A stretch of 64,000 nucleotides of DNA from an uncultured Melioribacteraceae bacterium (GTDB lineage Bacteria; Bacteroidota; Ignavibacteria; Ignavibacteriales; SURF-24): assembly GCA_965365345.1 (NCBI GenBank), contig CBDUBH010000005.1:913-64912 (forward strand). Reading direction: 5' to 3'. Each line of letters opens with the position of its first letter. Within the stretch, counting starts at the first letter, position 1. The notes beneath the pieces are model-generated. The model searched no databases, was not told the origin of the DNA, and saw only the letters and a program-made list of their open reading frames with translations. A program made the translations under genes and the position numbers. This document shows positions 21,076 through 31,175 of this stretch, piece after piece.

Positions 21076-21107
21076 AAAAAAAGCCCTTATTTTATTAAGG
21101 GCTTTTT
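21076..21107 (-). terminator. Rho-independent terminator ending the arsM-peptide-rSAM-trxR operon
   Basis: aaaaaaagcccttattttattaagggcttttt hairpin with A/T tails, just past the stop at 21135. Confidence 0.8.
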
Positions 21108-21134: not shown

Positions 21135-22460
21135 TTATTCTTCAACTTCCGAAAGTTTATTTTCTGTTACAACTTCATTTTCCAATTCTTTGGAAATTGA
21201 AATTGCGGCAATTGTTCCATCTGAAACCGCTGTTGTTATTTGTCTGAATTGCTTGCTTGCAACATCTCCGATTGCGTAAACATCCTGAATATTCGTGCGC
21301 ATGTTAGCATCAATTTTTACATAGCCCCAATTATCAAGTTCAAAATAATTTTTAAAATCGTTTATGTTTGGAGTCATGCCCGCAAAAATAAATACGCCGT
21401 CACATTTTAATGATTTATATTCTTTAGTTCTCAGATCTTCAATTATAATTTCATCAACTGATTTTCCGTTCTTTTTAAATTCACGAGGTTCGTGTTCAAA
21501 AATAAAATCGATTTTTGGATTTGCAAAAGCTTTTTCTTGCGCAATTTTATTTGCTTGAAGTTTATCAAACTGATGAACAATTGTAACACGCGAAGCAAAT
21601 TTTGTAATGAACAACGCTTCTTCAATTGCAGAGTTTCCACCTCCGATTACAACAACATGTTTGCCTTCGTAATATTTTGCATCGCAAGTTGCGCAGTAAG
21701 AAATTCCTTGTCCTTTATATTCCTTTTCGCCTTTTACATTAAGCGAGCGCGGCGATGAACCGGTTGCCAAAACAATTTTTTTCGCTCTGATCGTTTCAAC
21801 GCCATCGATTATAATTTCTTTATTTATGAGATCAACTTTTGTTACATCAACTGCCGATCTGAAATCTACTCCCGCCACTTTTGCCTGCTCACTCATGTGA
21901 TGCATTAACATATATCCGTTTATCGGCTCGGAAAACCCCGGATAATTACTTACCAAATGTGTAGTTTTAACTTGTCCACCGGGCAATTCTTTATCAATAA
22001 CAATAGTATTTAATTTTGCCTGAGCAGTGTAAATTGCGGTGGTTAATCCCGCAGGACCGCCGCCTAAAATTAGTACATCGCATTCTGTTTCTACTTTTTC
22101 AATACTTTCTTTTAATTCATTCGCGCGATCAGTTGGAATTAATAATTCCAAATTTTTTACGATATCACTTCTTTTAATTCCGCCGCTTAAAAGATCGCCT
22201 GTAATTTTTCCGTTATCGTAAAACAGCAAAGTCGGTGAAGATGAAACTCCTAATTCCTGTGCTAATTCTCTATTTCCTTGTCTAAAAATCTTAATAAATT
22301 TTACATCTTTTCCATAAATTTTACTCAACGATTCATATTTGCTTGCCAAAGCTTCGCAAGGCGGGCATTCAGTTGAATAAAAATCAACAACAACTTTTCC
22401 GCTATTTAGAACTTCATTTTCAAATTCCGGTGCATTAATTTCTTTAATGAACTCTGCCAT
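21135..22460 (-). CDS. Thioredoxin-thioredoxin reductase fusion (Trx domain N-terminal)
   Basis: N-terminal VVVDFYSTECPPC Trx domain; then GGGPAG, CATCD, GGGNSA, YAIGD, QITTAVSDG TrxB motifs. AGGAG RBS. Confidence 0.93.
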   Translation of the reverse strand: MAEFIKEINAPEFENEVLNSGKVVVDFYSTECPPCEALASKYESLSKIYGKDVKFIKIFRQGNRELAQELGVSSSPTLLFYDNGKITGDLLSGGIKRSDIVKNLELLIPTDRANELKESIEKVETECDVLILGGGPAGLTTAIYTAQAKLNTIVIDKELPGGQVKTTHLVSNYPGFSEPINGYMLMHHMSEQAKVAGVDFRSAVDVTKVDLINKEIIIDGVETIRAKKIVLATGSSPRSLNVKGEKEYKGQGISYCATCDAKYYEGKHVVVIGGGNSAIEEALFITKFASRVTIVHQFDKLQANKIAQEKAFANPKIDFIFEHEPREFKKNGKSVDEIIIEDLRTKEYKSLKCDGVFIFAGMTPNINDFKNYFELDNWGYVKIDANMRTNIQDVYAIGDVASKQFRQITTAVSDGTIAAISISKELENEVVTENKLSEVEE

Positions 22461-22522
22461 GTTTTATCAACTCCTGATTTATCTTTTAATTCTTTATAAT
22501 TTTATATCAATTTTTAAAATTT

Positions 22523-23827
22523 TTATTCTTTGAAAAAATGTGAAATTCCCATTTCCATTAATTCAGTGATTGGTCTGCAATCCGGTGAGTGCAGTTTTCC
22601 GTTTTTATTGTAAGCTACTTCTGCACAGCCGCCACCACATGCAAGTTGCAGATTACATTCTTTACATTCATTTATCATTGTTACATCACGCTCTTCCCAT
22701 TCTTCAATCGCTTCAAAATTTTTGTGAACTTCCGGGAAAAAAGTACCGAGTGTTCTATCGATTTTCCCGACAGTTGCAGTGCAGGAATAAATATTTCCGG
22801 TATAATCGAAGGCCCATTCAGTTTTACAACCGGTGCAAGCATCAAATAATGGTTTTGGAAGTTCGCCGTTTTCAAATAAAAATTTTGATATTGAAAATGC
22901 CGGTTTGTGAAATTCCAGAATTTCCGGATGCTTTTGAATTTCTTCAAAAATTGATTCGTAAAAATCCAAACGCGTAAAAAGTTTATCATTATCTTTTTGA
23001 CAATAATGAAGCTCGTAATTTCTTCCGAGCTGCGTTTTAAATAAAGGATTTTCTGTCCAGCCTTTTTCAATAGCATATTTTGAAAGTTGATAAAGTCCTT
23101 CAATATTTTCTTTATCAATTACAACTCTCAAATTTATTGTCAAATTATTTTCAAGCGCTGCATCAATCCCTTTTACAATTTTTTCAAATGTCGCCGAATT
23201 ATCTTTTAAATATCTTCTTTTATCATGAAGTTCGGCTGTGCCGTCAAGAGTAACCTGGATTTCTCTGATCTTCACTTTTTTTAGAATTTCAATATATTCT
23301 TCCAAATTAAAACCGTTTGTAACGATCGCAATTTCAAGATTATTTTCATCGCATTTTTGAAGAAAATATTTGATAAATTCTTTATTTTGTTTTCCCGGAA
23401 GTAAAGGTTCGCCGCCGAATAAAGTTATATATTTTCTTCTTCCCGCAAATTCATTTTTAACATATTCAAAAAACGCATCAACAATATTTTTACCGGGAAT
23501 TTTTACTTCATTTTCATAACCTACCTGATAACAATAACTGCAACTGAAATTACACAAATACCAAGGCACAAAGAAAATCTGAACTTCATCATTTTCGCGA
23601 TTTTCAGTAAATTCTAAATATTTTTCTATATAATTTCTTTTTTCATCCTGTTCTTCTGTCAAATAACCTTTTTCAAAATATTCCTGAATATCAGTGAATT
23701 TTCCGTTTTGAATCTCTTCAAATTTTTCTTTTGAAATTATATCAGCATTTCCCGATAAAATATTCACAAGAAAATATTCTTCCGAATTTCTTAGCTTTGA
23801 TAATATGTTATGTTTTGAAAAATACAT
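22523..23827 (-). CDS. Radical SAM/SPASM peptide maturase with probable N-terminal RRE
   Basis: CNFSCSYC, FGGEPLL, TNG, TLDG; SPASM Cys set CTGC...GNIYSC and CKECNLQLACGGGC...C; N-terminal YFLVNILSG...EKGYL resembles an RRE. Confidence 0.93.
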   Translation of the reverse strand: MYFSKHNILSKLRNSEEYFLVNILSGNADIISKEKFEEIQNGKFTDIQEYFEKGYLTEEQDEKRNYIEKYLEFTENRENDEVQIFFVPWYLCNFSCSYCYQVGYENEVKIPGKNIVDAFFEYVKNEFAGRRKYITLFGGEPLLPGKQNKEFIKYFLQKCDENNLEIAIVTNGFNLEEYIEILKKVKIREIQVTLDGTAELHDKRRYLKDNSATFEKIVKGIDAALENNLTINLRVVIDKENIEGLYQLSKYAIEKGWTENPLFKTQLGRNYELHYCQKDNDKLFTRLDFYESIFEEIQKHPEILEFHKPAFSISKFLFENGELPKPLFDACTGCKTEWAFDYTGNIYSCTATVGKIDRTLGTFFPEVHKNFEAIEEWEERDVTMINECKECNLQLACGGGCAEVAYNKNGKLHSPDCRPITELMEMGISHFFKE

Positions 23828-23913
23828 TTTTATTTTCTCTTGATAATGATTTGATGCAGGTAATTTTAATTGGTTTCAAAAAAAATCTTTTAATTCAATA
23901 ATTTATTTCAAAC

Positions 23914-23955
23914 AAAAAAAGCCGTAACGGAAAAATTTTCGCGGTTACGGCTTTT
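23914..23955 (-). terminator. Internal terminator/stabilising hairpin between the precursor peptide and rSAM genes
   Basis: Minus strand reads aaaagccgtaac-15 nt-gttacggc-ttttttt. Confidence 0.75.
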
Positions 23956-23983
23956 GTAAGATCAAACTGATAAAAAGCAGCGT

Positions 23984-24079
23984 TTAGTCGTGGCATCCTG
24001 CAACAACGGCAGAAACTTTTGCACAGCATTGCGCAACTTTCTTATCGGTTTTTTTTCCGTTTTTGATAAGAGTTTTCAT
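23984..24079 (-). CDS. Putative RiPP precursor peptide, 31 aa: MKTLIKNGKKTDKKVAQCCAKVSAVVAGCHD
   Basis: Translated by hand: ATG at 24079, TAA at 23984-23986, AGGAG RBS 6 nt upstream, 14 nt after the arsM stop. Lys-rich leader and Cys-bearing core; directly upstream of the SPASM enzyme. Confidence 0.85.
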   Translation of the reverse strand: MKTLIKNGKKTDKKVAQCCAKVSAVVAGCHD

Positions 24080-24093
24080 CTTATTCTCCTGAT

Positions 24094-24738
24094 TTATTTA
24101 CAACAACATCCGGCAGGTTTTTTCCCCGCCACAGTAAAACTTGAAATTACTATTTTTCCTTTTTCGTACGGAACGCTTTCTTCGATTATTTCGACTGAAT
24201 TAAATCCCGCTAGCGAAATTGTATCAAGATATTTTTCTTTTGTAATTGAACCTGCCCAGCATTCCGAAACTGCTACCGGATCGGTTCTGTATTCTTCAGG
24301 AACATCTTCCAATGAATAAATATCGCTTATTACAAATCTTCCGCCTTTTTTCAAAACTCTGAAAATTTCGGCAAAAACTTTGGCTTTATTTTCAGCGTGA
24401 TTTATAGTGCAATTTGAAATTACCAGATCCGCAATTCCGCTCGGCAAATTTAGTTCTTCCAATTCAGATTTAACAAAATTTACATTTGAAATTCCGAATT
24501 TTTCTGAATTCTTTTTTGCTTTTTCCAGCATTCCGTCAGAAACATCAATGCCGTAAACGAATCCTTTTGTACCAACGGTTTGTGCCATTCTGATAACATC
24601 ATTTCCTCTGCCGCAGCCGAGATCAACGCAAACTTCGCCTTCTGAAACTTTTGAATAATTAATTGCACCGCCGCAAGAAAGACAGCAACTTTCCTCGGCA
24701 AGTTTGGTATAACGGTTATTTATTTCGGTTGTATCCAT
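24094..24738 (-). CDS. arsM: Arsenite S-adenosylmethionine methyltransferase (ArsM/AS3MT)-like protein
   Basis: ESCCLSCGG, SAM motif VDLGCGRGND, ISNCTINH and ECWAG (the two catalytic-Cys motifs of ArsM/AS3MT), C-terminal GCCCK. ATG at 24738 (MDTTE) preferred over TTG at 24834. Confidence 0.8.
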   Translation of the reverse strand: MDTTEINNRYTKLAEESCCLSCGGAINYSKVSEGEVCVDLGCGRGNDVIRMAQTVGTKGFVYGIDVSDGMLEKAKKNSEKFGISNVNFVKSELEELNLPSGIADLVISNCTINHAENKAKVFAEIFRVLKKGGRFVISDIYSLEDVPEEYRTDPVAVSECWAGSITKEKYLDTISLAGFNSVEIIEESVPYEKGKIVISSFTVAGKKPAGCCCK

Positions 24739-24937: not shown

Positions 24938-27367
24938 ATGAAGAAAGTATTATTATTTTTACTTATGGTTTCGGCAAATCTTTTTGCACAAGGGACTTTA
25001 TCAAATAAGGATTTCGGAAGAATTTCCGGAACGATTATAGATTCCGCATCAAATAAACCAATCGAATATGCAACAATTGTAGTTTTTAGAGGAAGTGATT
25101 CAACATATTCAACAGGAATTACATCCAACGATAAAGGAAGATTCTTACTTGACAAAGTTCCTTTCGGAAAATTAAAAGTAAAAGTTTCTTTTATGGGTTA
25201 CGAAAATAAGATTGTTGATAAAATAATTCTTGACGAAAAGAATTCGTTAAAAGATTTAGGCACGATCAAACTTTCGCAAAAAGCGCTTGATCTTGAAGGT
25301 GTTGAAGTAACCGCTCAGCGAAGTTTGATTGAATTCAACATTGATAAAACAGTTGTAAATGTTGATAAAACTCTTCCTTCTGCCGGTGGCTCAGCGCTTG
25401 ATGTTTTGCGAAATACTCCTTCAGTAAATGTTGATGCCGACGGTAATATTTCTTTAAGAGGAAATTCAAACATAAATATTTTGATTGACGGAAAACCTTC
25501 CAGCATGGCAAACTCGCAAATGCTTGAACAATTGCCCGCAGGTTCGTTAGATAAAATTGAACTTGTTACAAATCCCTCTGCAAAATATGATGCCGAAGGA
25601 ACAGCGGGAATAATAAATATCGTGTTGAAAAAAAATAAGGAAAAAAATATTAATGGTTTAATTTCCGCAAACGTCGGGACAAAAGATAATTATAACGGTT
25701 CATTAAGTTTAAATTATAAATCCGATAAATTGAATCTGTTTTCAAATTACGATAACAGATTTATAAGACGAGAAGGTAACGGAAGCGCGCAGCGTGAAAA
25801 TTATTTGCAAAGCGGAAATACTTTTTATGATCAAACAATGGCAATGAGATTTAACGGCGCTTGGCATAATTTCAAAGGCGGATTTGATTATTCTTTTGAT
25901 GATAAAAATTCTTTGTCATCTTCAATTTTATATAACGGCGGCAAAAGAAACTTTAAAGGAAGAATAATTTTAAATGATATGAATGCCGATAGGTCAATTA
26001 AACAAATAACAAGAACTTCAAATGATGGCGAAGTAAACGGACATTCCTTGGATTATACATTAAATTATAAAAGATTATTTGAAAAACCGGGCAACGAGCT
26101 GACTGCTGATTTTTTTGTGTCAAGCTCCGGACATGAAGATGCTTTATCACGAATAACGGGAAATTTGGATTCAGATATGAATCCTGCGGGTGATCCTTTT
26201 AATGAGCAAAATACTTTAACGGATAACCAAAATTTATACGCATCTTTTACTTCTGATTATGTACTTCCATTCAGTGAAACAAATAAATTTGAAGCAGGTT
26301 ACAAAGGAACTTTGCGTGACAGAAATCTGGATTATTCTGTTGATAATCTTATTGAAGGAAATTGGGTTAATGACCTTAATCTAAGCAATGAATTTAATTA
26401 TAAAGAGCAGATTCACGCAGCATATGCAATGTACACAGGCAAAGTTGAAAAATTCAAATATCAACTTGGATTAAGAAGCGAAAATACAATTACCAATGCA
26501 AATCAAAAAACATTGAACGAAATTCATAAAGAAAATTATTTGGACTTCTTCCCTACTTTGAATTTGAGTCGTGAAATTTTCAAAGGCGATGAAATGAAGA
26601 TCAGTTACAGTAGAAGAATAAATCGCCCGATGATATTTTTTATAAATCCTTTTGTAAGATTTATTGATCCTACTTTCGCACAAAAAGGAAATCCGAATTT
26701 GAAGCCAGAATATATTGATTCTTATGAATTTGCAAATAGCTTTTTCCACAAACAATCTTCCTTGATTACAACTTTATTTTACAGGGAAACAAAAGATAAT
26801 TTCACTTTTCTTGCAGAGTTGAAAGATGACGGCGTAACTTACGCAACATTTCAAAATTTAGGGAAAAGAATTTCATACGGGTTGGAAGTAAATGCCGGTC
26901 ATCAAATTTTCAAATGGTGGAACTTGAACGCAAATTACAGTTACTTTAACAGCGAAATTAAAGGCGAATATTCAGGCGCTGATGAAACTTCACCGTTAAA
27001 TTCTTATACAGTTAGATTAAGTTCCTCAATGAATTTGTGGTGGGGGATCAGTTTTCAATTTAACGGAAATTATTCATCACCTACAATTGAAGCGCAAGGC
27101 AGAACCGATGAATTTTTCTATACTGATGCCGCGATCAGAAAAGATTTCTTAAATAAAAAATTGAATGTGAGTTTAAGAATTTCCGATGCGCTTAATTCAA
27201 TGAAATTCAAAAGTAGAATTAATGGTGAAAATTTCAGAATTATAAATGAACAAAATCCGAACAATCAGATTGTAACTCTTTCATTAACTTACACAATAAA
27301 TAATTTCAAACGCACACGCGAAAGAAGAGATGACGGCGGCGGAAGAGAATACGAAAATATGCAGTAA
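24938..27367 (+). CDS. TonB-dependent receptor / outer-membrane beta-barrel with N-terminal CarboxypepD_reg-like domain
   Basis: Signal peptide, ISGTIID...PIEYATI domain, plug motif IELVTNPSAKYDAEGTAGIINIVLKK, GNPNLKPE, C-terminal beta strands. Confidence 0.9.
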   Translation: MKKVLLFLLMVSANLFAQGTLSNKDFGRISGTIIDSASNKPIEYATIVVFRGSDSTYSTGITSNDKGRFLLDKVPFGKLKVKVSFMGYENKIVDKIILDEKNSLKDLGTIKLSQKALDLEGVEVTAQRSLIEFNIDKTVVNVDKTLPSAGGSALDVLRNTPSVNVDADGNISLRGNSNINILIDGKPSSMANSQMLEQLPAGSLDKIELVTNPSAKYDAEGTAGIINIVLKKNKEKNINGLISANVGTKDNYNGSLSLNYKSDKLNLFSNYDNRFIRREGNGSAQRENYLQSGNTFYDQTMAMRFNGAWHNFKGGFDYSFDDKNSLSSSILYNGGKRNFKGRIILNDMNADRSIKQITRTSNDGEVNGHSLDYTLNYKRLFEKPGNELTADFFVSSSGHEDALSRITGNLDSDMNPAGDPFNEQNTLTDNQNLYASFTSDYVLPFSETNKFEAGYKGTLRDRNLDYSVDNLIEGNWVNDLNLSNEFNYKEQIHAAYAMYTGKVEKFKYQLGLRSENTITNANQKTLNEIHKENYLDFFPTLNLSREIFKGDEMKISYSRRINRPMIFFINPFVRFIDPTFAQKGNPNLKPEYIDSYEFANSFFHKQSSLITTLFYRETKDNFTFLAELKDDGVTYATFQNLGKRISYGLEVNAGHQIFKWWNLNANYSYFNSEIKGEYSGADETSPLNSYTVRLSSSMNLWWGISFQFNGNYSSPTIEAQGRTDEFFYTDAAIRKDFLNKKLNVSLRISDALNSMKFKSRINGENFRIINEQNPNNQIVTLSLTYTINNFKRTRERRDDGGGREYENMQ

Positions 27368-27470: not shown

Positions 27471-29765
27471 TTATTTTGTTTCGGTTGCTGCACCGTCAAT
27501 TTCTTCGGTAACTTCATCAACTTCTTTTTCAATTGACCATCCGGTTTTCAATCCTAAAACAAAATAACCTAATGCTAAAATTCCGGCAGCAAATATTGTA
27601 TCGCCAATTACTCTGAGCCATCTTAAAGTATCAATAAGCGGAGTTTGATTAAATTCTGCTGATCTTGCATACCACATTCCATGTTCAACGCTTGCCCAAG
27701 TTTGAAGTATTCCGACAGGAAGAATACTGATCAATACCATTAAAGATAATCCGATATTTATTGACCAGAATGCAAATGAAACAGCTTTCGTTTTCCAAAC
27801 ATACCTGTTAGTTAATCCTTTTAAGCAGAAAAGCATTAGACCGATTCCAAGCATTCCATAAACTCCGAATAATGCTGTGTGCGCGTGTACGGGAGTGGTT
27901 TCCAATCCTTGCATATAATAAAGTGCGATCGGAGGGTTGATCAAAAATCCAAATAACCCGGCGCCGACCAAATTCCAGAATGCAACAGCAACGAAAAAGT
28001 AGATCGGCCATTTATAAGCAGAAACCCAACTTTTTGCCCGGCTTAAAGTAAGATTTTCATAAGCTTCAAATCCGATTAATACAAGCGGAACCACTTCTAA
28101 TGCACTAAAAGTTGCACCGAGAGCCATTACTGCCGTCGGAGTTCCCGTAAAATACAAGTGATGAAAAGTTCCGATGATTCCGCCGGATAAAAATATTATT
28201 GTTGAAAATAATACTGCATAAGTCGCTGTTGCTACTTGCAACAATCCCATTCTTGTAAATAAAAATGCAATTACAACTGTTGCAAAAACTTCAAAGAAAC
28301 CTTCAACCCAAAGATGGACAACCCACCATCTCCAATATTCAGCAATTGCGTAATTTGTTTGTCTTCCCCACATCAATCCGGCACCGTAAAATAATGCGAT
28401 TGCTACCGATGAGATCAAAAACAAACCGAGAAGATGTCGGTTTTCACCTTTCTTTTTGAAAGCTGGCCACATTGATCTTCCCATTAAAAATAACCAAAGA
28501 AATAGCCCTATTAATAAGAATATCTGCCAGAATCTTCCGAGATCAACATATTCATAACCTTGATGACCAAACCAAAAATTTGAAACAAATCCTAATTTTT
28601 GCTGAACGCCAAGCCATTGACCGAACATTGAACCAACAACAATTATAAGCAGTGCAACGAAAAGAAAATTTACGCCTGCCTTTTGAAATTTTGGTTCATA
28701 GCCGGAAACCGCCGGGGCAATAAATAATCCTGTTGCAAGCCATGCCGTTGCTATCCAAAAGATTCCAAGCTGTGTGTGCCAGGTTCTTGTTACGGAATAT
28801 GGAAACCATTCATCTAATGGAATTCCGTAAAATCCCGAGCCTTCAACACCGTAATGCGCCGTTACTGCACCAAGCAAAACCTGAACTACAATTAATGCAG
28901 CAACAACCCAGAAATATTTTAAAGTCGCTTTCATTGATGGAGTTGGTGAAATTGCCAATAATGGATCCCAGCCCGGGACTTCATAACTATGATCTTCCTT
29001 TTTCCGCAAAACTGCGTAGTACCAAGCCAAGGCTCCTATTCCGGCAAGCAATAAAACAAAACTGATTACTGACCAAACAATGATCTCACCATTCGGTCTG
29101 TTTCCAATCAGATCATCTGCCGGCCAGTTATTTGTGTATGTAATATCTTTTCCAGGACGATTTGTAACACATGACCATGAAGCCCAAAAGAAAAATGCAT
29201 TTATCTTTTCCTGTCTATCATCAGATTTAATTGTGTTTTCCGGAATTGCATATGCTTCGCGAAGTTCCTCCATTGAAGGATCATCGCCGAATAATTTTGC
29301 ATAATAATCACTTAAATAATTATATGCCGCAATTCTATCGGGAGTTAAAGTTAAAGTTTTTGTATCGAAATTAAATGTGTTTTTATGAAGTTCTATTTGA
29401 AGTGATTTTTCTAATGAGGCTTTATCCTCAGGAGGCAAATTTTCATACTCAATGTCGTATTTTTCATTTGCTCTTTTATTCAGAATGAAAAGAGCCTCGC
29501 GGTGAAGCCAATCTGCCGTCCAATCCGGAGCGATATAAGCTCCATGTCCCCAAAGTGTGCCGAGTTCCTGTCCGCCTATTGATTGCCAGACATTTTGTCC
29601 GTCTTTAATATCCTGTCCAGTAAAAATGACTTCGCCGTTTTCACCCACAACTTTCTCGGGAATCGGCGGGGCCTCCCTGTAAATCTCAAATCCGTAATAT
29701 CCCAATACACCAAAAGAAAATATCATTACGAGCGCTAATCCGATCCACAGTTTTTTATAGTTCAT
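27471..29765 (-). CDS. norZ: Quinol-dependent nitric oxide reductase (qNor, single large subunit)
   Basis: GHGAYIAPDWTADWLHRE, WWVVHLWVEGFFEVF, GTFHHLY, HAHTALFGVYG. ATG at 29765 has a GGAG RBS. Confidence 0.95.
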   Translation of the reverse strand: MNYKKLWIGLALVMIFSFGVLGYYGFEIYREAPPIPEKVVGENGEVIFTGQDIKDGQNVWQSIGGQELGTLWGHGAYIAPDWTADWLHREALFILNKRANEKYDIEYENLPPEDKASLEKSLQIELHKNTFNFDTKTLTLTPDRIAAYNYLSDYYAKLFGDDPSMEELREAYAIPENTIKSDDRQEKINAFFFWASWSCVTNRPGKDITYTNNWPADDLIGNRPNGEIIVWSVISFVLLLAGIGALAWYYAVLRKKEDHSYEVPGWDPLLAISPTPSMKATLKYFWVVAALIVVQVLLGAVTAHYGVEGSGFYGIPLDEWFPYSVTRTWHTQLGIFWIATAWLATGLFIAPAVSGYEPKFQKAGVNFLFVALLIIVVGSMFGQWLGVQQKLGFVSNFWFGHQGYEYVDLGRFWQIFLLIGLFLWLFLMGRSMWPAFKKKGENRHLLGLFLISSVAIALFYGAGLMWGRQTNYAIAEYWRWWVVHLWVEGFFEVFATVVIAFLFTRMGLLQVATATYAVLFSTIIFLSGGIIGTFHHLYFTGTPTAVMALGATFSALEVVPLVLIGFEAYENLTLSRAKSWVSAYKWPIYFFVAVAFWNLVGAGLFGFLINPPIALYYMQGLETTPVHAHTALFGVYGMLGIGLMLFCLKGLTNRYVWKTKAVSFAFWSINIGLSLMVLISILPVGILQTWASVEHGMWYARSAEFNQTPLIDTLRWLRVIGDTIFAAGILALGYFVLGLKTGWSIEKEVDEVTEEIDGAATETK

Positions 29766-29870
29766 TTTGACTCCAATATTTGATGAAAACAATTTTGATG
29801 AATTGAATAATGAATCTTATCTTATCTAAACAAGATATCTGGTATTATAAAGTCACAATTTTCTCCCCCC

Positions 29871-30452: not shown

Positions 30453-31175
30453 TTAATTTTTTCTTAAATCATTTTCCATTTGAATTGCTTTTGGGAACAA
30501 GATCGAATTTTCAAGAAAAACATGTTTGTGAAGGTCTTTTTCAAATTCATCTAATTCTTTATAAGTTACGGCAAAAGTTGTGCATGCGCCTTGCGGTAAA
30601 GTGAAATTGCTTGTTAAAGTTCTGATTTTTTCAAGAGCATCTCCTGCACTGTCATGCTCTCTTTCCATTACCTCAATAGGATTTTTCACTGAAAAATTTC
30701 CGAATGAACTTAAATCTTCCCCGCTTCTTTTTGCCTGAATCATTTTGTTAATTGCAGGGAATAAAATATTTTCTTCTTTTTGCATGTGACTGAAAAGTTC
30801 AGCTTTTACTTTATCAAATAGATAAGCGACTTCCTGCACGAAAGGATGATTTGCGGAATGTGCGTTCACAACTCTTTGTAAATGTTCCGTAATAACAGGA
30901 ATTGATCTTAAAACATATTTATGATGATTATTAACAATATGCATTATCAAATAATCCAATTCCCATTCATCATATCTGTTGCTATCGCCGCCGGGCAATT
31001 TTGCTGCTTCTTTTAATTCGCTCAAAATTTGATCTACATTAATATTTTTTTCCGCGCAAGCCTGATTTAGCGGTCTGTTACCTTTACAGCAAAAATCAAT
31101 TCCGTATTTTTCAAAAACTTCTGCTGATCTGAAATTCTCTGCAACCAAATCTTTAATTATTACATCTGCGTTCAT
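30453..31175 (-). CDS. ric: Iron-sulfur cluster repair di-iron protein (Ric/YtfE/ScdA)
   Basis: GIDFCCKG, HHKY, HMQKEENILFP, MEREHD, HVFLENSILFP. Confidence 0.96.
   Translation of the reverse strand: MNADVIIKDLVAENFRSAEVFEKYGIDFCCKGNRPLNQACAEKNINVDQILSELKEAAKLPGGDSNRYDEWELDYLIMHIVNNHHKYVLRSIPVITEHLQRVVNAHSANHPFVQEVAYLFDKVKAELFSHMQKEENILFPAINKMIQAKRSGEDLSSFGNFSVKNPIEVMEREHDSAGDALEKIRTLTSNFTLPQGACTTFAVTYKELDEFEKDLHKHVFLENSILFPKAIQMENDLRKN

What the first reader, a model, noticed from the sequence alone, without database searches (positions are those of the whole stretch)
21135..24738. Candidate arsenic/methylation-linked RiPP operon: arsM-like + Cys peptide + rSAM/SPASM + Trx-TrxR
Seen: four co-oriented genes (gaps of 14, about 155 and 62 nt) closed by a terminator at 21076-21107. 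Known: SPASM radical SAM enzymes next to short Cys peptides make sactipeptides/ranthipeptides; ArsM/AS3MT methylates As(III) using Trx/TrxR/NADPH; radical SAM plus ArsM pairs build organoarsenicals (ArsL-ArsM for arsinothricin, ArsS-ArsM for arsenosugars). No arsR, arsC, acr3 or arsB is nearby, so this is not a standard resistance operon. Inference: the operon makes a modified peptide carrying or binding methylarsenic, or an S-methylated and thioether-bridged peptide, with its own reductant supply. I have an unverified recollection that arsM-linked RiPP clusters have been proposed elsewhere, so novelty needs a literature check.
Basis: partly seen in the sequence, partly recalled or inferred. 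Interest (0 to 1): 0.92.

Follow-up and report, generated by a model that had tools for sequence, protein, structure and literature searches.

The report
Conserved Cys-peptide, radical-SAM, ArsM-like, Trx-TrxR module
Four neighbouring genes form a widely conserved, apparently undescribed module in which a radical SAM enzyme probably modifies a tiny cysteine peptide that works with an arsenic-type methyltransferase and its own thioredoxin system, but a link to arsenic is not shown.

Summary
On the minus strand lie a short ArsM-type methyltransferase (24094-24738), a 31-aa peptide (23984-24079), a radical SAM/SPASM enzyme (22523-23827), a Trx-TrxR fusion (21135-22460) and a terminator (21078-21107).

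- **Linkage.** Among the 80 best of 493 rSAM relatives in species genomes, all four genes lie together in 67. The peptide is adjacent in 76. In the other 4 genomes it occurs once elsewhere.
- **Peptide.** The core AQCCAKxSxxxxGCHD-stop is invariant across at least six phyla. Invariant codons vary at third positions only.
- **Binding model.** The peptide N-terminus is placed on the enzyme's RRE-like domain: score 0.81, best control 0.01.
- **Methyltransferase.** It keeps the As(III)-binding cysteines of solved ArsM, but it is truncated and scores below the family cut-off.
- **Against an arsenic role.** The genome has a canonical arsR-arsC-acr3-arsM operon elsewhere, and ars genes are almost never nearby (acr3 1 of 160 loci, arsR-like 1 of 160).
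A hairpin terminator follows the peptide gene.

Most likely this is an intracellular RiPP-like thioether peptide that works with the methyltransferase and Trx-TrxR in thiol-based methylation. The substrate is unknown. Five literature searches found no description.

The parts
24094..24738 (-). Short ArsM/AS3MT-type SAM methyltransferase (214 aa). It has the motif CCLSCGG, SNC (C110), ECWAG (C160) and a Cys-rich C-terminal tail (GCCCK).
   Evidence: Pfam Methyltransf_31, 7.8e-36. NCBIfam arsenite methyltransferase, 191.5 bits against a cut-off of 263. phmmer alignment to CmArsM chains 4kw7/4fr0, residues 70-250, with Cys under chain C72, C174 and C224. Cys conservation 67-71 of 71. AF2 model pLDDT 91.6, and the 12 best PDB fold matches are all ArsM/AS3MT.
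23984..24079 (-). 31-aa peptide MKTLIKNGKKTDKKVAQCCAKVSAVVAGCHD. It has an N-terminal recognition stretch, a Lys-rich linker and an invariant core AQCCAKxSxxxxGCHD. AGGAG lies at 24086-24090, 6 nt upstream of the ATG.
   Evidence: ORF, sequence. The core is invariant in 75 ORFs from 74 loci and in alignment A2. At the 11 invariant codons, positions 1-2 differ in 0.7% of pairs and position 3 in 53.6%. A profile search of 1.84 billion representatives gave 137 hits, 135 of them 30-62 aa.
23914..23951 (-). Hairpin (23951-23921) plus T7 (23920-23914) directly after the peptide gene. It looks like an intrinsic terminator or attenuator between the peptide and the rSAM gene.
   Evidence: Sequence. RNAfold dG -12.3 kcal/mol. 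A hairpin plus T-run of differing sequence is present in 29 of 59 related loci with a gap of at least 45 nt, and in 15 of the 17 rows listed for L001-L019. The scan did not report it.
22523..23827 (-). Radical SAM/SPASM peptide maturase (434 aa) with an N-terminal RRE-like domain (strands 7-11, 18-22 and 27-31, then helices). It has C92-x3-C96-x2-C99 and C-terminal Cys C331, C334, C349, C388, C391, C397, C401.
   Evidence: Pfam Radical_SAM. Full-length NCBIfam matches to CefB, TIGR04463, Clo7bot, PapB and the SCIFF maturase, all below their cut-offs. CteB 5wgg, E 3.4e-12, including the CxxCx5Cx3C stretch. Invariant Cys. AF2 model pLDDT 89.9. Fold matches CteB, anSME, SuiB and ChlB. Complex model with the peptide.
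21135..22460 (-). Thioredoxin (CPPC) fused to a low-molecular-weight thioredoxin reductase (CATC), 441 aa.
   Evidence: Pfam Thioredoxin residues 6-104 and Pyr_redox_2 residues 128-415. TIGR01292, 331.5 bits against a cut-off of 343.45. CPPC in 70 of 71 and CATC in 67 of 71 homologues. Adjacent to the rSAM in 73 of 80 loci.
21078..21107 (-). Terminator-like stem-loop (12 pairs) plus T-run that closes the gene row.
   Evidence: Scan, sequence.

Best explanation
The four genes are one conserved functional module.

**Peptide.** The 31-aa ORF is translated into a precursor or carrier peptide. It has a short N-terminal recognition stretch (MKSLI-type), a Lys-rich linker of variable length, and an invariant C-terminal core AQCCAKxSxxxxGCHD.

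**rSAM step.** The radical SAM/SPASM enzyme holds the N-terminus on its RRE-like domain. It then modifies the core, most likely by making Cys-derived thioether cross-link(s) near the C-terminus, as its nearest characterised relatives do.

**Fate of the peptide.** No protease or exporter travels with the module, so the modified peptide probably stays whole inside the cell. It would then act like a small cofactor or carrier, not a secreted antibiotic.

**Methylation cycle.** The truncated ArsM-type methyltransferase keeps the cysteines that bind As(III) in solved ArsM. With the dedicated Trx-TrxR fusion it would run a thiol-based methylation cycle together with this peptide. Either the peptide's remaining thiol(s) present a thiophilic substrate (As(III), or a related metalloid or chalcogen) to the enzyme, or they are themselves methylated. 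Trx-TrxR re-reduces the disulfides formed.

**Shown in silico:** the gene set, its conservation, selection on the peptide, and the modelled peptide-RRE contact.

**Inferred:** the thioether chemistry, the intracellular fate, the methyl acceptor and the role of Trx-TrxR.
For: **Conserved linkage**
- 493 of 572 pattern-matched stretches in one-genome-per-species contigs encode relatives of the rSAM. The 80 kept are 55-67% identical.
- in these 80 loci the peptide core is present in 76, the methyltransferase in 73, Trx-TrxR in 73 and all four in 67. The order is MT-peptide-rSAM-TrxR in 60 and TrxR-MT-peptide-rSAM in 7.
- Of the 13 incomplete loci, 8 are cut by contig ends (flank lengths).
- the 4 genomes without an adjacent peptide each have exactly one core-pattern hit elsewhere, and the reversed control pattern has 0.
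- the 4 genomes without an adjacent TrxR each have a 60-65% identical orthologue elsewhere.
- (peptide-first scan of metagenome contigs): the rSAM lies directly downstream in 49 of 66 testable loci, and the methyltransferase upstream in 59 of 70.

**The peptide is a real, constrained gene**
- invariant M1, L4 and AQCCAK.S....GCHD.
- 74 distinct core DNAs differ in 53.6% of pairs at third positions of the invariant codons, against 0.7% at positions 1-2.
- 135 of 137 profile hits are 30-62 aa stand-alone ORFs. No credible fusion was seen.

**rSAM identity**
-, as listed under parts. The best solved relative is CteB, a thioether synthase.
- PapB-type enzymes make Cys-Asp or Cys-Glu thioethers (abstract of PMC9413430 as listed).

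**Binding model**
- ipSAE 0.81 (runs 0.81, 0.81, 0.83). The best of 3 controls is 0.01.
- The mark was reached by 58 of 80 solved complexes and 2 of 110 mismatched pairs.
- The runs share at least 32% of contacts. Partner pLDDT is at least 47.
- Peptide residues 1-7 pair with enzyme residues 26-31, which are strand 27-31 of the model.
- D31 lies near residues 268-269, 286, 289 and 401. G268, R269, R286 and C401 are invariant.
- RRE-leader complexes are solved (for example SuiB-SuiA 5v1t). The pass therefore shows likeness to them, not proof of binding.

**Methyltransferase**
-, as listed under parts.

**No recurrent peptidase or exporter**
- None is among the 22 most frequent neighbour families in 160 loci.

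**Recalled, not from a call**
- ArsM/AS3MT turnover in vitro is supported by Trx/TrxR/NADPH through a disulfide cascade among its conserved cysteines.
Against: - There is no experimental or expression evidence. No RNA run was listed for this stretch.
- In the complex model only residue 31 of the core is placed with confidence. Peptide pLDDT is 47-55, so the modified residue is unknown.
- The Pfam SPASM and PqqD models do not hit the rSAM even at E <= 10. No NCBIfam equivalog cut-off is reached: the best is CefB at 161.5 against 600.
- The second-best fold neighbours are anSME enzymes, which oxidise Cys or Ser instead of cross-linking.
- A hairpin plus T-run separates the peptide gene from the rSAM gene.
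- Some genomes split the module: the L052 genome (rSAM+TrxR at one place, MT+peptide at another), L111 and L160 (MT+peptide without an rSAM nearby), L090 and L123 (no methyltransferase directly upstream; in L123 no Trx-TrxR nearby either).
- Against a metalloid substrate: no ars genes in the window; acr3 in 1 of 160 and arsR-like in 1 of 160 related loci.
- The genome already has arsR-arsC-acr3-arsM, with an ArsM scoring 328 bits, above the cut-off.
- The cassette methyltransferase is only 36% identical to that ArsM. It lacks the C-terminal domain of ArsM and scores below the cut-off.
- If all three peptide Cys become thioethers, none is left to bind a metalloid.
Confidence: 0.55

Rival explanations
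1. This is an ordinary ranthipeptide or sactipeptide natural product. The rSAM cross-links the peptide, and the methyltransferase is only a tailoring enzyme that methylates a peptide residue (S, N or O). Trx-TrxR merely keeps the cysteines reduced. The product is released as a signal or antibiotic, and no metalloid is involved.
For: - The rSAM's closest named families are Cys-peptide maturases: CefB, TIGR04463, Clo7bot, PapB and the SCIFF maturase. CteB is the best solved relative.
- A strong hairpin follows the precursor gene, as in many RiPP operons (the comparison is recalled).
- There is no ars linkage.
- The feature search of the ESM Atlas gave only weak leads to bacteriocin precursors, with scores of 0.76-0.87, below the 0.9 mark.
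Against: - No peptidase or exporter recurs in 160 loci.
- The core is invariant across phyla, which is unusual for antibiotics under diversifying pressure. SCIFF peptides are also conserved (recalled).
- A tailoring methyltransferase has no evident need to keep every As(III)-binding cysteine of ArsM plus a CC pair and a Cys-rich tail.
- A dedicated Trx-TrxR fusion is present in 73 of 80 loci.
Confidence: 0.2
2. This is a chalcogen or sulfur handling system, not an arsenic one. The peptide's CC...C thiols carry selenium, tellurium or sulfane sulfur, for example as a selenotrisulfide or persulfide. Trx-TrxR reduces it, and the ArsM-like enzyme methylates the product.
For: - Accessory genes that recur near the module are of this kind (counts out of 160 loci): DUF1847, sometimes fused to rhodanese (22), DUF302 (25), an SQR-like flavoprotein (6), and a small two-TM Cys protein (32).
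- Also seen in individual loci: a TehB-like methyltransferase, and YeeE/YedE 'Sulf_transp' genes with multihaem cytochrome and cytochrome b in L003, L014, L052 and L111.
- ars genes are absent.
Against: - Each accessory family is present in a minority of loci (at most 32 of 160). Most are domains of unknown function.
- The cysteine set that is kept is the one defined for As(III) binding in ArsM.
- This reading gives the rSAM no role.
Confidence: 0.12
3. This is an arsenic-bearing peptide. As(III) is chelated by the three peptide cysteines. The rSAM generates a carbon radical on the core that attacks the arsenic, making a peptide C-As bond. The ArsM-like enzyme then methylates the arsenic, and Trx-TrxR supplies reducing power.
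For: - The peptide has three invariant Cys.
- The methyltransferase keeps its As(III)-binding Cys.
- Radical addition to As(III) by rSAM enzymes paired with ArsM is precedented: ArsL-ArsM for arsinothricin (PMC8552651, listing and abstract start) and ArsS-ArsM for arsenosugars (recalled).
Against: - The rSAM is a SPASM/RRE peptide maturase, not an ArsL or ArsS relative.
- The methyltransferase scores far below the arsinothricin ArsM model (112 against 500) and the arsenosugar ArsM model (72.9 against 400).
- There is no arsenic uptake, efflux or regulator linkage.
- A canonical ars operon lies elsewhere in the genome.
Confidence: 0.07
4. These are two unrelated units that merely sit side by side: MT+peptide and rSAM+Trx-TrxR. 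The rSAM's true substrate lies elsewhere.
For: - A hairpin plus T-run lies between the units.
- The units occur apart in the L052 genome, L111 and L160.
Against: - All 80 genomes that hold the rSAM also hold the peptide core: 76 adjacent and 4 elsewhere.
- The splits do not follow one boundary. In the L021 genome the peptide sits with TrxR, away from the rSAM. In the L047 and L065 genomes only TrxR is apart.
- The complex model places the peptide on the rSAM (0.81 against a best control of 0.01).
- The rSAM is single-copy in this genome.
Confidence: 0.04

Closest known systems
CteB / thermocellin and other RRE-bearing rSAM/SPASM thioether synthases (sactipeptide and ranthipeptide maturases, including PapB, the SCIFF maturase and CefB)
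   Same: - N-terminal RRE-like domain, CX3CX2C radical SAM core and C-terminal Cys-rich SPASM-type region.
- A short Cys-containing precursor is encoded directly upstream.
- The leader is modelled on the RRE strand.
   Different: - Only 18-19% identical to CteB in the fold alignment.
- Below every NCBIfam family cut-off.
- The Pfam SPASM model does not hit.
- The core is invariant across phyla, with only three Cys.
- The module has no peptidase or exporter. Instead it carries an ArsM-type methyltransferase and a Trx-TrxR fusion.
ArsM / AS3MT arsenite S-adenosylmethionine methyltransferase, with Trx/TrxR as reductant
   Same: - Class I methyltransferase fold.
- Cys aligned with CmArsM C72, C174 and C224.
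- The 12 best PDB fold matches are all ArsM/AS3MT, with TMq 0.75-0.80.
- A thioredoxin system is encoded alongside. Dependence of ArsM on Trx/TrxR is recalled.
   Different: - 214 aa. It lacks the N-terminal segment and the C-terminal domain: the alignment ends at chain residue 250 of 377, and TMt is 0.51-0.57.
- 191.5 bits against a cut-off of 263.
- 36% identical to the genome's own canonical ArsM.
- Not linked to arsR, arsC or acr3.
- A CC pair lies directly before the C72-equivalent, and the C-terminal tail is Cys-rich.
ArsL-ArsM (arsinothricin) and ArsS-ArsM (arsenosugar) pairs
   Same: A radical SAM enzyme is encoded beside an ArsM-type methyltransferase.
   Different: - The rSAM here is a peptide maturase with an RRE-like domain and a peptide substrate.
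- The methyltransferase scores 112 against 500 (arsinothricin ArsM) and 72.9 against 400 (arsenosugar ArsM).
- Those pathways sit in ars operons (PMC8552651, abstract start). This module does not.
Peptide-derived cofactor systems (PqqA/PqqE, MftA/MftC)
   Same: A very short, highly conserved peptide is modified near its C-terminus by an rSAM/SPASM enzyme, and the product is used inside the cell (recalled). PqqE is a fold neighbour (rank 49).
   Different: The peptide and enzyme are not homologous beyond the superfamily. No peptidase is present to release a small molecule. The partner enzymes are different.

Membership tests
ArsM/AS3MT arsenite methyltransferase | Class I SAM-dependent methyltransferase fold closest to ArsM | tested here: met
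   Pfam Methyltransf_31, 7.8e-36. AF2 model pLDDT 91.6. PDB fold ranks 1-12 are all ArsM/AS3MT, with E 7.8e-20 to 1.2e-17. The next methyltransferase is at 9.9e-15.
ArsM/AS3MT arsenite methyltransferase | Cysteines equivalent to CmArsM C72, C174 and C224 (As(III) site; numbering recalled and read off the chain coordinates) | tested here: met
   Alignment: query C22, C110 and C160 lie under the chain Cys in 'ygCG', 'sNCv' and 'geClgG'. They are conserved in 68, 70 and 71 of 71 family members.
ArsM/AS3MT arsenite methyltransferase | Fourth, N-terminal conserved cysteine (C44 in CmArsM, recalled) | tested here: inconclusive
   The alignment starts at chain residue 70. The protein has a conserved CC pair at residues 18-19, only 3 residues before C22. 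The genome's canonical ArsM instead has CGCCC about 30 residues upstream.
ArsM/AS3MT arsenite methyltransferase | Score above the curated family cut-off, with a full-length match | tested here: not met
   NF008823: 191.5 bits against 263, covering profile positions 59-233 of 272. The canonical ArsM of the same genome scores 328.4.
ArsM/AS3MT arsenite methyltransferase | Genomic association with arsenic resistance genes | tested here: not met
   No arsR, arsC or acr3 in the window. acr3 is in 1 of 160 related loci and arsR-like in 1 of 160.
ArsM/AS3MT arsenite methyltransferase | Methylation of As(III) | not testable with these tools
   This needs an enzyme assay.
RRE-dependent rSAM/SPASM peptide maturase (thioether-forming sacti/ranthipeptide type) | CX3CX2C radical SAM cluster motif | tested here: met
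   C92, C96 and C99 are invariant in 42 sequences. Pfam Radical_SAM, 8.4e-21.
RRE-dependent rSAM/SPASM peptide maturase (thioether-forming sacti/ranthipeptide type) | C-terminal SPASM domain with cysteines for auxiliary clusters | tested here: inconclusive
   For: invariant C331, C334, C349, C388, C391, C397 and C401. CxxCx5Cx3C is aligned with CteB. There are full-length matches to SPASM maturase models. The fold matches CteB and anSME. Against: the Pfam SPASM model does not hit at E <= 10.
RRE-dependent rSAM/SPASM peptide maturase (thioether-forming sacti/ranthipeptide type) | N-terminal RiPP recognition element that binds the leader | tested here: met
   The model has three strands (7-11, 18-22, 27-31) followed by helices. 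In the complex model, peptide residues 1-7 lie on residues 26-31. The score is 0.81 against a best control of 0.01. The mark was reached by 58 of 80 solved and 2 of 110 mismatched pairs. The runs share at least 32% of contacts, and partner pLDDT is at least 47. The Pfam PqqD model does not hit. This is model-level evidence only.
RRE-dependent rSAM/SPASM peptide maturase (thioether-forming sacti/ranthipeptide type) | Adjacent short precursor gene | tested here: met
   Adjacent in 76 of 80 genome loci. The rSAM is downstream in 49 of 66 testable peptide-first loci.
RRE-dependent rSAM/SPASM peptide maturase (thioether-forming sacti/ranthipeptide type) | Membership of a named equivalog (CefB, TIGR04463, Clo7bot, PapB, SCIFF maturase) | tested here: not met
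   Scores against cut-offs: 161.5 against 600, 133.2 against 525, 119.6 against 600, 117.6 against 340, 82 against 425.
RRE-dependent rSAM/SPASM peptide maturase (thioether-forming sacti/ranthipeptide type) | Thioether (S-C) cross-link in the product | not testable with these tools
   This needs mass spectrometry or NMR of the modified peptide.
Thioredoxin reductase (low molecular weight) fused to thioredoxin | FAD/NAD(P)H oxidoreductase with a CxxC redox centre, plus a Trx domain with CxxC | tested here: met
   Pyr_redox_2, 1e-58, and Thioredoxin, 1.8e-19. CATC in 67 of 71 and CPPC in 70 of 71. TIGR01292 scores 331.5 against 343.45, just below the cut-off.
ArsL-ArsM / ArsS-ArsM organoarsenical pathways | rSAM of the ArsL or ArsS type, and a pathway-specific ArsM | tested here: not met
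   The 25 best NCBIfam matches of the rSAM, out of 74, are mostly peptide or protein maturases plus MoaA, and none is an ArsL or ArsS model. The methyltransferase scores 112.4 against 500 (arsinothricin ArsM) and 72.9 against 400 (arsenosugar ArsM).

The most novel reading that the evidence does not exclude
The module makes a ribosomal peptide with covalently bound, methylated arsenic or another metalloid. The three invariant cysteines chelate As(III). The rSAM's carbon radical on the core captures the arsenic, forming a peptide C-As bond. The ArsM-like enzyme methylates it, with Trx-TrxR as reductant. This would be the first metalloid-containing RiPP, and it would be widespread in anaerobic Ignavibacteria, Bacteroidales and Spirochaetota.
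Probability: 0.07. Interest if true: 0.95.

Novelty: new variant of a known kind. Interest (0 to 1): 0.68.

Why it matters
rSAM/SPASM enzymes with short Cys peptides are a known kind of system. This one is different in four ways:
- Its core peptide is invariant across at least six phyla.
- It has no protease or exporter.
- It is tied to an ArsM-type methyltransferase that keeps its metalloid-binding cysteines.
- It has its own Trx-TrxR.

Neither NCBIfam nor Pfam has a model for the peptide or a specific one for the rSAM. Public annotations of the methyltransferase's relatives are generic, and I found no paper on the module.

If the peptide is a carrier or cofactor for thiol-based methylation, that would be a new role for RiPP machinery. 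It would also add a player to metalloid or chalcogen cycling in anoxic sediments and groundwater. It matters for annotation too. JGI names 20 of the 120 listed relatives of this methyltransferase 'arsenite methyltransferase', so arsM gene surveys may count this paralogue as an arsenic methylator without evidence.

A cultured carrier (Pleomorphochaeta sp. DL1XJH-081, locus L025) makes the question directly testable.

Tried and rejected
**Searches that found nothing**
- Rfam, whole window at gathering threshold: no match.
- Expression: the look-up of sequencing runs listed no RNA holder, only one DNA run with 0.06 of the words.
- ESM Atlas look-up of the peptide: all scores were below 0.9, so these are leads only.
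- Literature: five full-text searches and passages from three papers gave nothing on this module. The two Haft papers on selenoprotein neighbourhoods (PMC12013261, PMC9879109) are not held. Supplements are closed, so the list of about 15,000 RiPP rSAM proteins behind PMC10288494 could not be checked and may contain this family.

**Ideas considered and rejected**
- A selenocysteine read-through of the peptide stop. The stops are TAA in 44, TAG in 9 and TGA in 23 of 76, so there is no consistent TGA.
- A fusion of the peptide to a larger protein. The two long profile hits, P0181 and P0204, look like a repeat artefact and a read-through.
- A standard ars operon.
- An ArsL/ArsS-type rSAM.

**Limits on other results**
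- The rSAM tree is the quick tree, because the careful search did not finish in the time allowed. It used 78 loci with an rSAM ORF of at least 400 aa, plus the window. Two loci were left out.
- The neighbour clustering used my own crude ORF caller. In the high-GC metagenome contigs this yields spurious ORFs, so counts there are lower bounds.
- The methyltransferase-peptide contact could not be modelled, because the single complex job went to rSAM-peptide.

Full report
**What is in the window.** One search lists four co-oriented ORFs on the minus strand.
- A methyltransferase at 24094-24738. The ATG at 24738 is the likely start, because 70 homologues begin at the same MDT..EIN..RY.
- A 31-aa ORF at 23984-24079 (MKTLIKNGKKTDKKVAQCCAKVSAVVAGCHD), with AGGAG 6 nt upstream of its ATG.
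- A 434-aa radical SAM enzyme at 22523-23827.
- A 441-aa thioredoxin / thioredoxin-reductase fusion at 21135-22460.

The gaps are 14, 156 and 62 nt. A 12-pair stem-loop with a T-run lies at 21107-21078.

It is a hairpin at 23951-23921 followed by T7, with dG -12.3 kcal/mol. No Rfam family matches anywhere in the window.

**The parts.**
- *Methyltransferase.* It scores best against NCBIfam arsenite methyltransferase, but below the cut-off (191.5 against 263, profile positions 59-233 of 272). It aligns to solved CmArsM chains over residues 70-250. Cysteines lie under the chain's C72, C174 and C224. In 71 family members C18, C19, C22, C110 and C160 are kept in 67-71, and most carry a Cys-rich C-terminal tail. 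An AlphaFold model (pLDDT 91.6) has ArsM/AS3MT structures as its 12 best PDB matches (TMq 0.75-0.80).
- *rSAM.* It has invariant C92-x3-C96-x2-C99 and seven invariant C-terminal cysteines. It gives full-length but sub-threshold matches to Cys-peptide maturases, the best being CefB at 161.5 against 600. The thioether synthase CteB is its best solved relative by sequence (E 3.4e-12) and by fold (TM 0.65). anSME, SuiB and ChlB follow. The Pfam SPASM and PqqD models do not hit. The model (pLDDT 89.9) starts with three strands and then helices, an RRE-like domain.
- *Trx-TrxR fusion.* It has CPPC (70 of 71) and CATC (67 of 71).

**Is the arrangement conserved?** Yes, strongly.
- *rSAM-first search.* A scan of one genome per species found 493 relatives among 572 pattern-matched stretches. 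The 80 kept are 55-67% identical. By the labels used in the tree (78 of the 80 loci), they come from Bacteroidota (42), Ignavibacteriota (16), Spirochaetota (13), Elusimicrobiota (2), Bacillota-labelled bins (2), Latescibacterota (1) and Fibrobacterota (1), plus 1 unlabelled bin.
- *Gene content of the 80 loci.* The peptide core is present in 76, the methyltransferase in 73, Trx-TrxR in 73 and all four in 67. The order is the window's in 60, and Trx-TrxR comes first in 7. Of the 13 incomplete loci, 8 are cut by contig ends.
- *Genome-level check.* The four genomes without an adjacent peptide each have exactly one core-pattern match elsewhere, and the reversed control pattern has none. For L052, L004 and L014 that match sits beside a methyltransferase orthologue. 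The four genomes without an adjacent Trx-TrxR each have a 60-65% identical orthologue elsewhere.
The rSAM lies directly downstream in 49 of 66 testable loci, and the methyltransferase upstream in 59 of 70. Most exceptions belong to a high-GC subtype. There the peptide carries an extra CCAPE motif, the order is MT-peptide-TrxR, and a 36% identical rSAM lies nearby in another position (L164, L139, L169). L111 and L160 have MT+peptide without an rSAM within the fetched flank.
- *Distribution.* It is patchy. In a sample of 401 genomes of the phylum, 4 have an orthologue at E <= 1e-100, the window's own genome included. The quick rSAM tree still follows phylum labels, with 11 label changes against a minimum of 6 and a shuffled mean of 32.1. 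This suggests mostly vertical descent with many losses, plus a few transfers or mis-binned contigs.

**Is the peptide a real gene?**
- In 75 ORFs from 74 loci the architecture is constant. There is an N-terminal M-[KR]-[ST]-L-[IV], then a Lys-rich linker that gives total lengths of 30-39 aa, then AQCCAKxSxxxxGCHD and a stop. M1, L4 and 11 core residues are invariant.
- At the 11 invariant core codons, 74 distinct DNA versions differ in 53.6% of pairs at the third position, against 0.7% at positions 1-2. This is a clear signature of selection on the protein.
- A profile search of 1.84 billion cluster representatives gave 137 hits. Of these, 135 are stand-alone ORFs of 30-62 aa whose linkers reach about 30 residues. 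The two long hits look spurious.

**Does the peptide go with the rSAM?**
- The complex prediction scored 0.81 (runs 0.81, 0.81, 0.83) against a best control of 0.01. That mark was reached by 58 of 80 solved complexes and 2 of 110 mismatched pairs. The runs share at least 32% of contacts, and partner pLDDT is at least 47.
- Peptide residues 1-7 lie along enzyme residues 26-31, the third strand of the N-terminal domain. This is the classical way an RRE holds a leader.
- The C-terminal Asp31 is placed near residues 268-269, 286, 289 and 401. G268, R269, R286 and C401 are invariant.
- Leader-RRE complexes have been solved, for example SuiB-SuiA. The pass therefore shows likeness and is not proof. 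The rest of the core is not confidently placed.

**Is it about arsenic?**
- *For.* The only evidence is the methyltransferase's retained As(III)-binding cysteines, the three invariant peptide thiols, and the thioredoxin system. ArsM is known to use such a system in vitro (recalled).
- *Against.*
  - The window has no arsR, arsC or acr3. Among 160 related loci, acr3 occurs in 1 and an arsR-like gene in 1.
  - The same genome (3.57 Mb, 171 contigs) has a canonical arsR-arsC-acr3-arsM operon on another contig, with an ArsM scoring 328 bits. The cassette enzyme is only 36% identical to it.
  - The genes that do recur near the module are a family-less 81-aa two-TM Cys protein (32 of 160), DUF302 (25), an IS1595-type Zn-ribbon ORF (25), DUF1847 sometimes fused to rhodanese (22), MarR (16), and more rarely an SQR-like flavoprotein, YeeE/YedE transporters and multihaem cytochromes. 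This flavour is thiol, sulfur or chalcogen, not arsenic.
- No peptidase or exporter recurs.

**Most likely mechanism.**
1. The peptide is translated.
2. Its N-terminus docks on the RRE-like domain (modelled).
3. The rSAM abstracts a hydrogen in the core and forms Cys-derived thioether bridge(s). This is inferred from its nearest relatives CteB, PapB-type and SCIFF-type enzymes. PapB makes Cys-Asp or Cys-Glu links (abstract listed), and this core ends in an invariant C-H-D.
4. The uncleaved product stays in the cell (inferred from the absence of a protease or exporter).
5. The ArsM-type enzyme either methylates a thiophilic substrate held by its own and the peptide's thiols, or methylates the peptide itself.
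6. Trx-TrxR resets the disulfides.

The hairpin after the peptide gene is present with differing sequences in 29 of 59 loci that have room for it, and in 15 of the 17 rows listed for L001-L019, nearly all Ignavibacteria-type. It would give more peptide and methyltransferase transcript than rSAM transcript. That fits a substrate or carrier made in excess.

I put 0.55 on this general picture. Within it, I judge the rSAM-peptide relation likely and the identity of the methyl acceptor open.

**Novelty.** NCBIfam and Pfam have no model for the peptide and no specific model for this rSAM. Public names for the methyltransferase's relatives are 'methyltransferase domain-containing protein', 'arsenite methyltransferase' or 'UbiE'. 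Five full-text searches found no description. Two possibly relevant papers and all supplements could not be read. I file the module as a new variant of a known kind (rSAM/SPASM RiPP systems), not as a member of any named family.

Noticed in passing
own genome, contig C12 (locus L089 6274-9168): A canonical arsR-arsC-acr3-arsM operon. Its ArsM scores 328 bits against a cut-off of 263, and Acr3 scores 460 bits. It lies on a different contig from the window.
   Followed up: yes
window 23914-23951 (-); related loci L001-L019: The hairpin plus T-run after the peptide gene is conserved as a structure, not as a sequence. It is present in 15 of the 17 rows listed for L001-L019 and is mostly absent in Bacteroidales, where the gap is often under 45 nt.
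   Followed up: partly
L052 5611-5856; L090 5861-6109; 32 of 160 loci: An 81-aa protein with two predicted TM stretches and the motifs GCSSGSC and SPCSxxxC. It has no Pfam or NCBIfam family and often lies just upstream of the module. It might be a small thiol- or metal-handling membrane protein.
   Followed up: partly
L056 3726-4163 (-); 25 of 160 loci: A 145-aa ORF with only the Zn-ribbon N-terminal part of an IS1595-type transposase (28 bits against a cut-off of 75). It recurs beside the module in Bacteroidales-type loci. It may be a domesticated DNA-binding protein.
   Followed up: no
metagenome loci L164, L139, L131, L135, L145, L117, L103, L133: A high-GC subtype of the system. The peptide has an extra CCAPE motif before the invariant core. 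The gene order is MT-peptide-TrxR. The rSAM is only about 36% identical and is placed elsewhere, convergent in L164 and upstream in L139.
   Followed up: partly
L215 786-2769; L214: In the genomes of L047 and L065 the Trx-TrxR orthologue sits apart from the module. It lies directly after a 213-aa degenerate paralogue of the cassette methyltransferase (35% identical). That paralogue keeps the CC pair and the C110- and C160-equivalents. It lacks the LSCGG cysteine and has a degenerate glycine-rich SAM motif.
   Followed up: partly
window 21135-22460 (-): The reductase domain has a conserved V/I-H-Q-F-D stretch where NADPH-specific thioredoxin reductases have HRR (motif recalled). The fusion may therefore use NADH or another donor.
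   Followed up: no
window 27471-29792 (-) and 30453-31175 (-): A quinol-type nitric oxide reductase (NorB cytochrome-c-like domain plus COX1) and a ScdA/hemerythrin di-iron repair protein lie just upstream of the divergent TonB-dependent receptor (24938-27367). They form a nitrosative-stress pair and are not conserved with the module.
   Followed up: no
L055 48-6799: Two tandem copies of peptide-rSAM-TrxR in one Bacteroidales bin. This is either a duplication or an assembly artefact.
   Followed up: no
L002 and L007: Two bins labelled Bacillota (one as Syntrophomonadaceae) carry modules that nest inside the Ignavibacteria clade, with 65-67% identity to the window. This suggests mis-binned contigs or recent transfer.
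   Followed up: no
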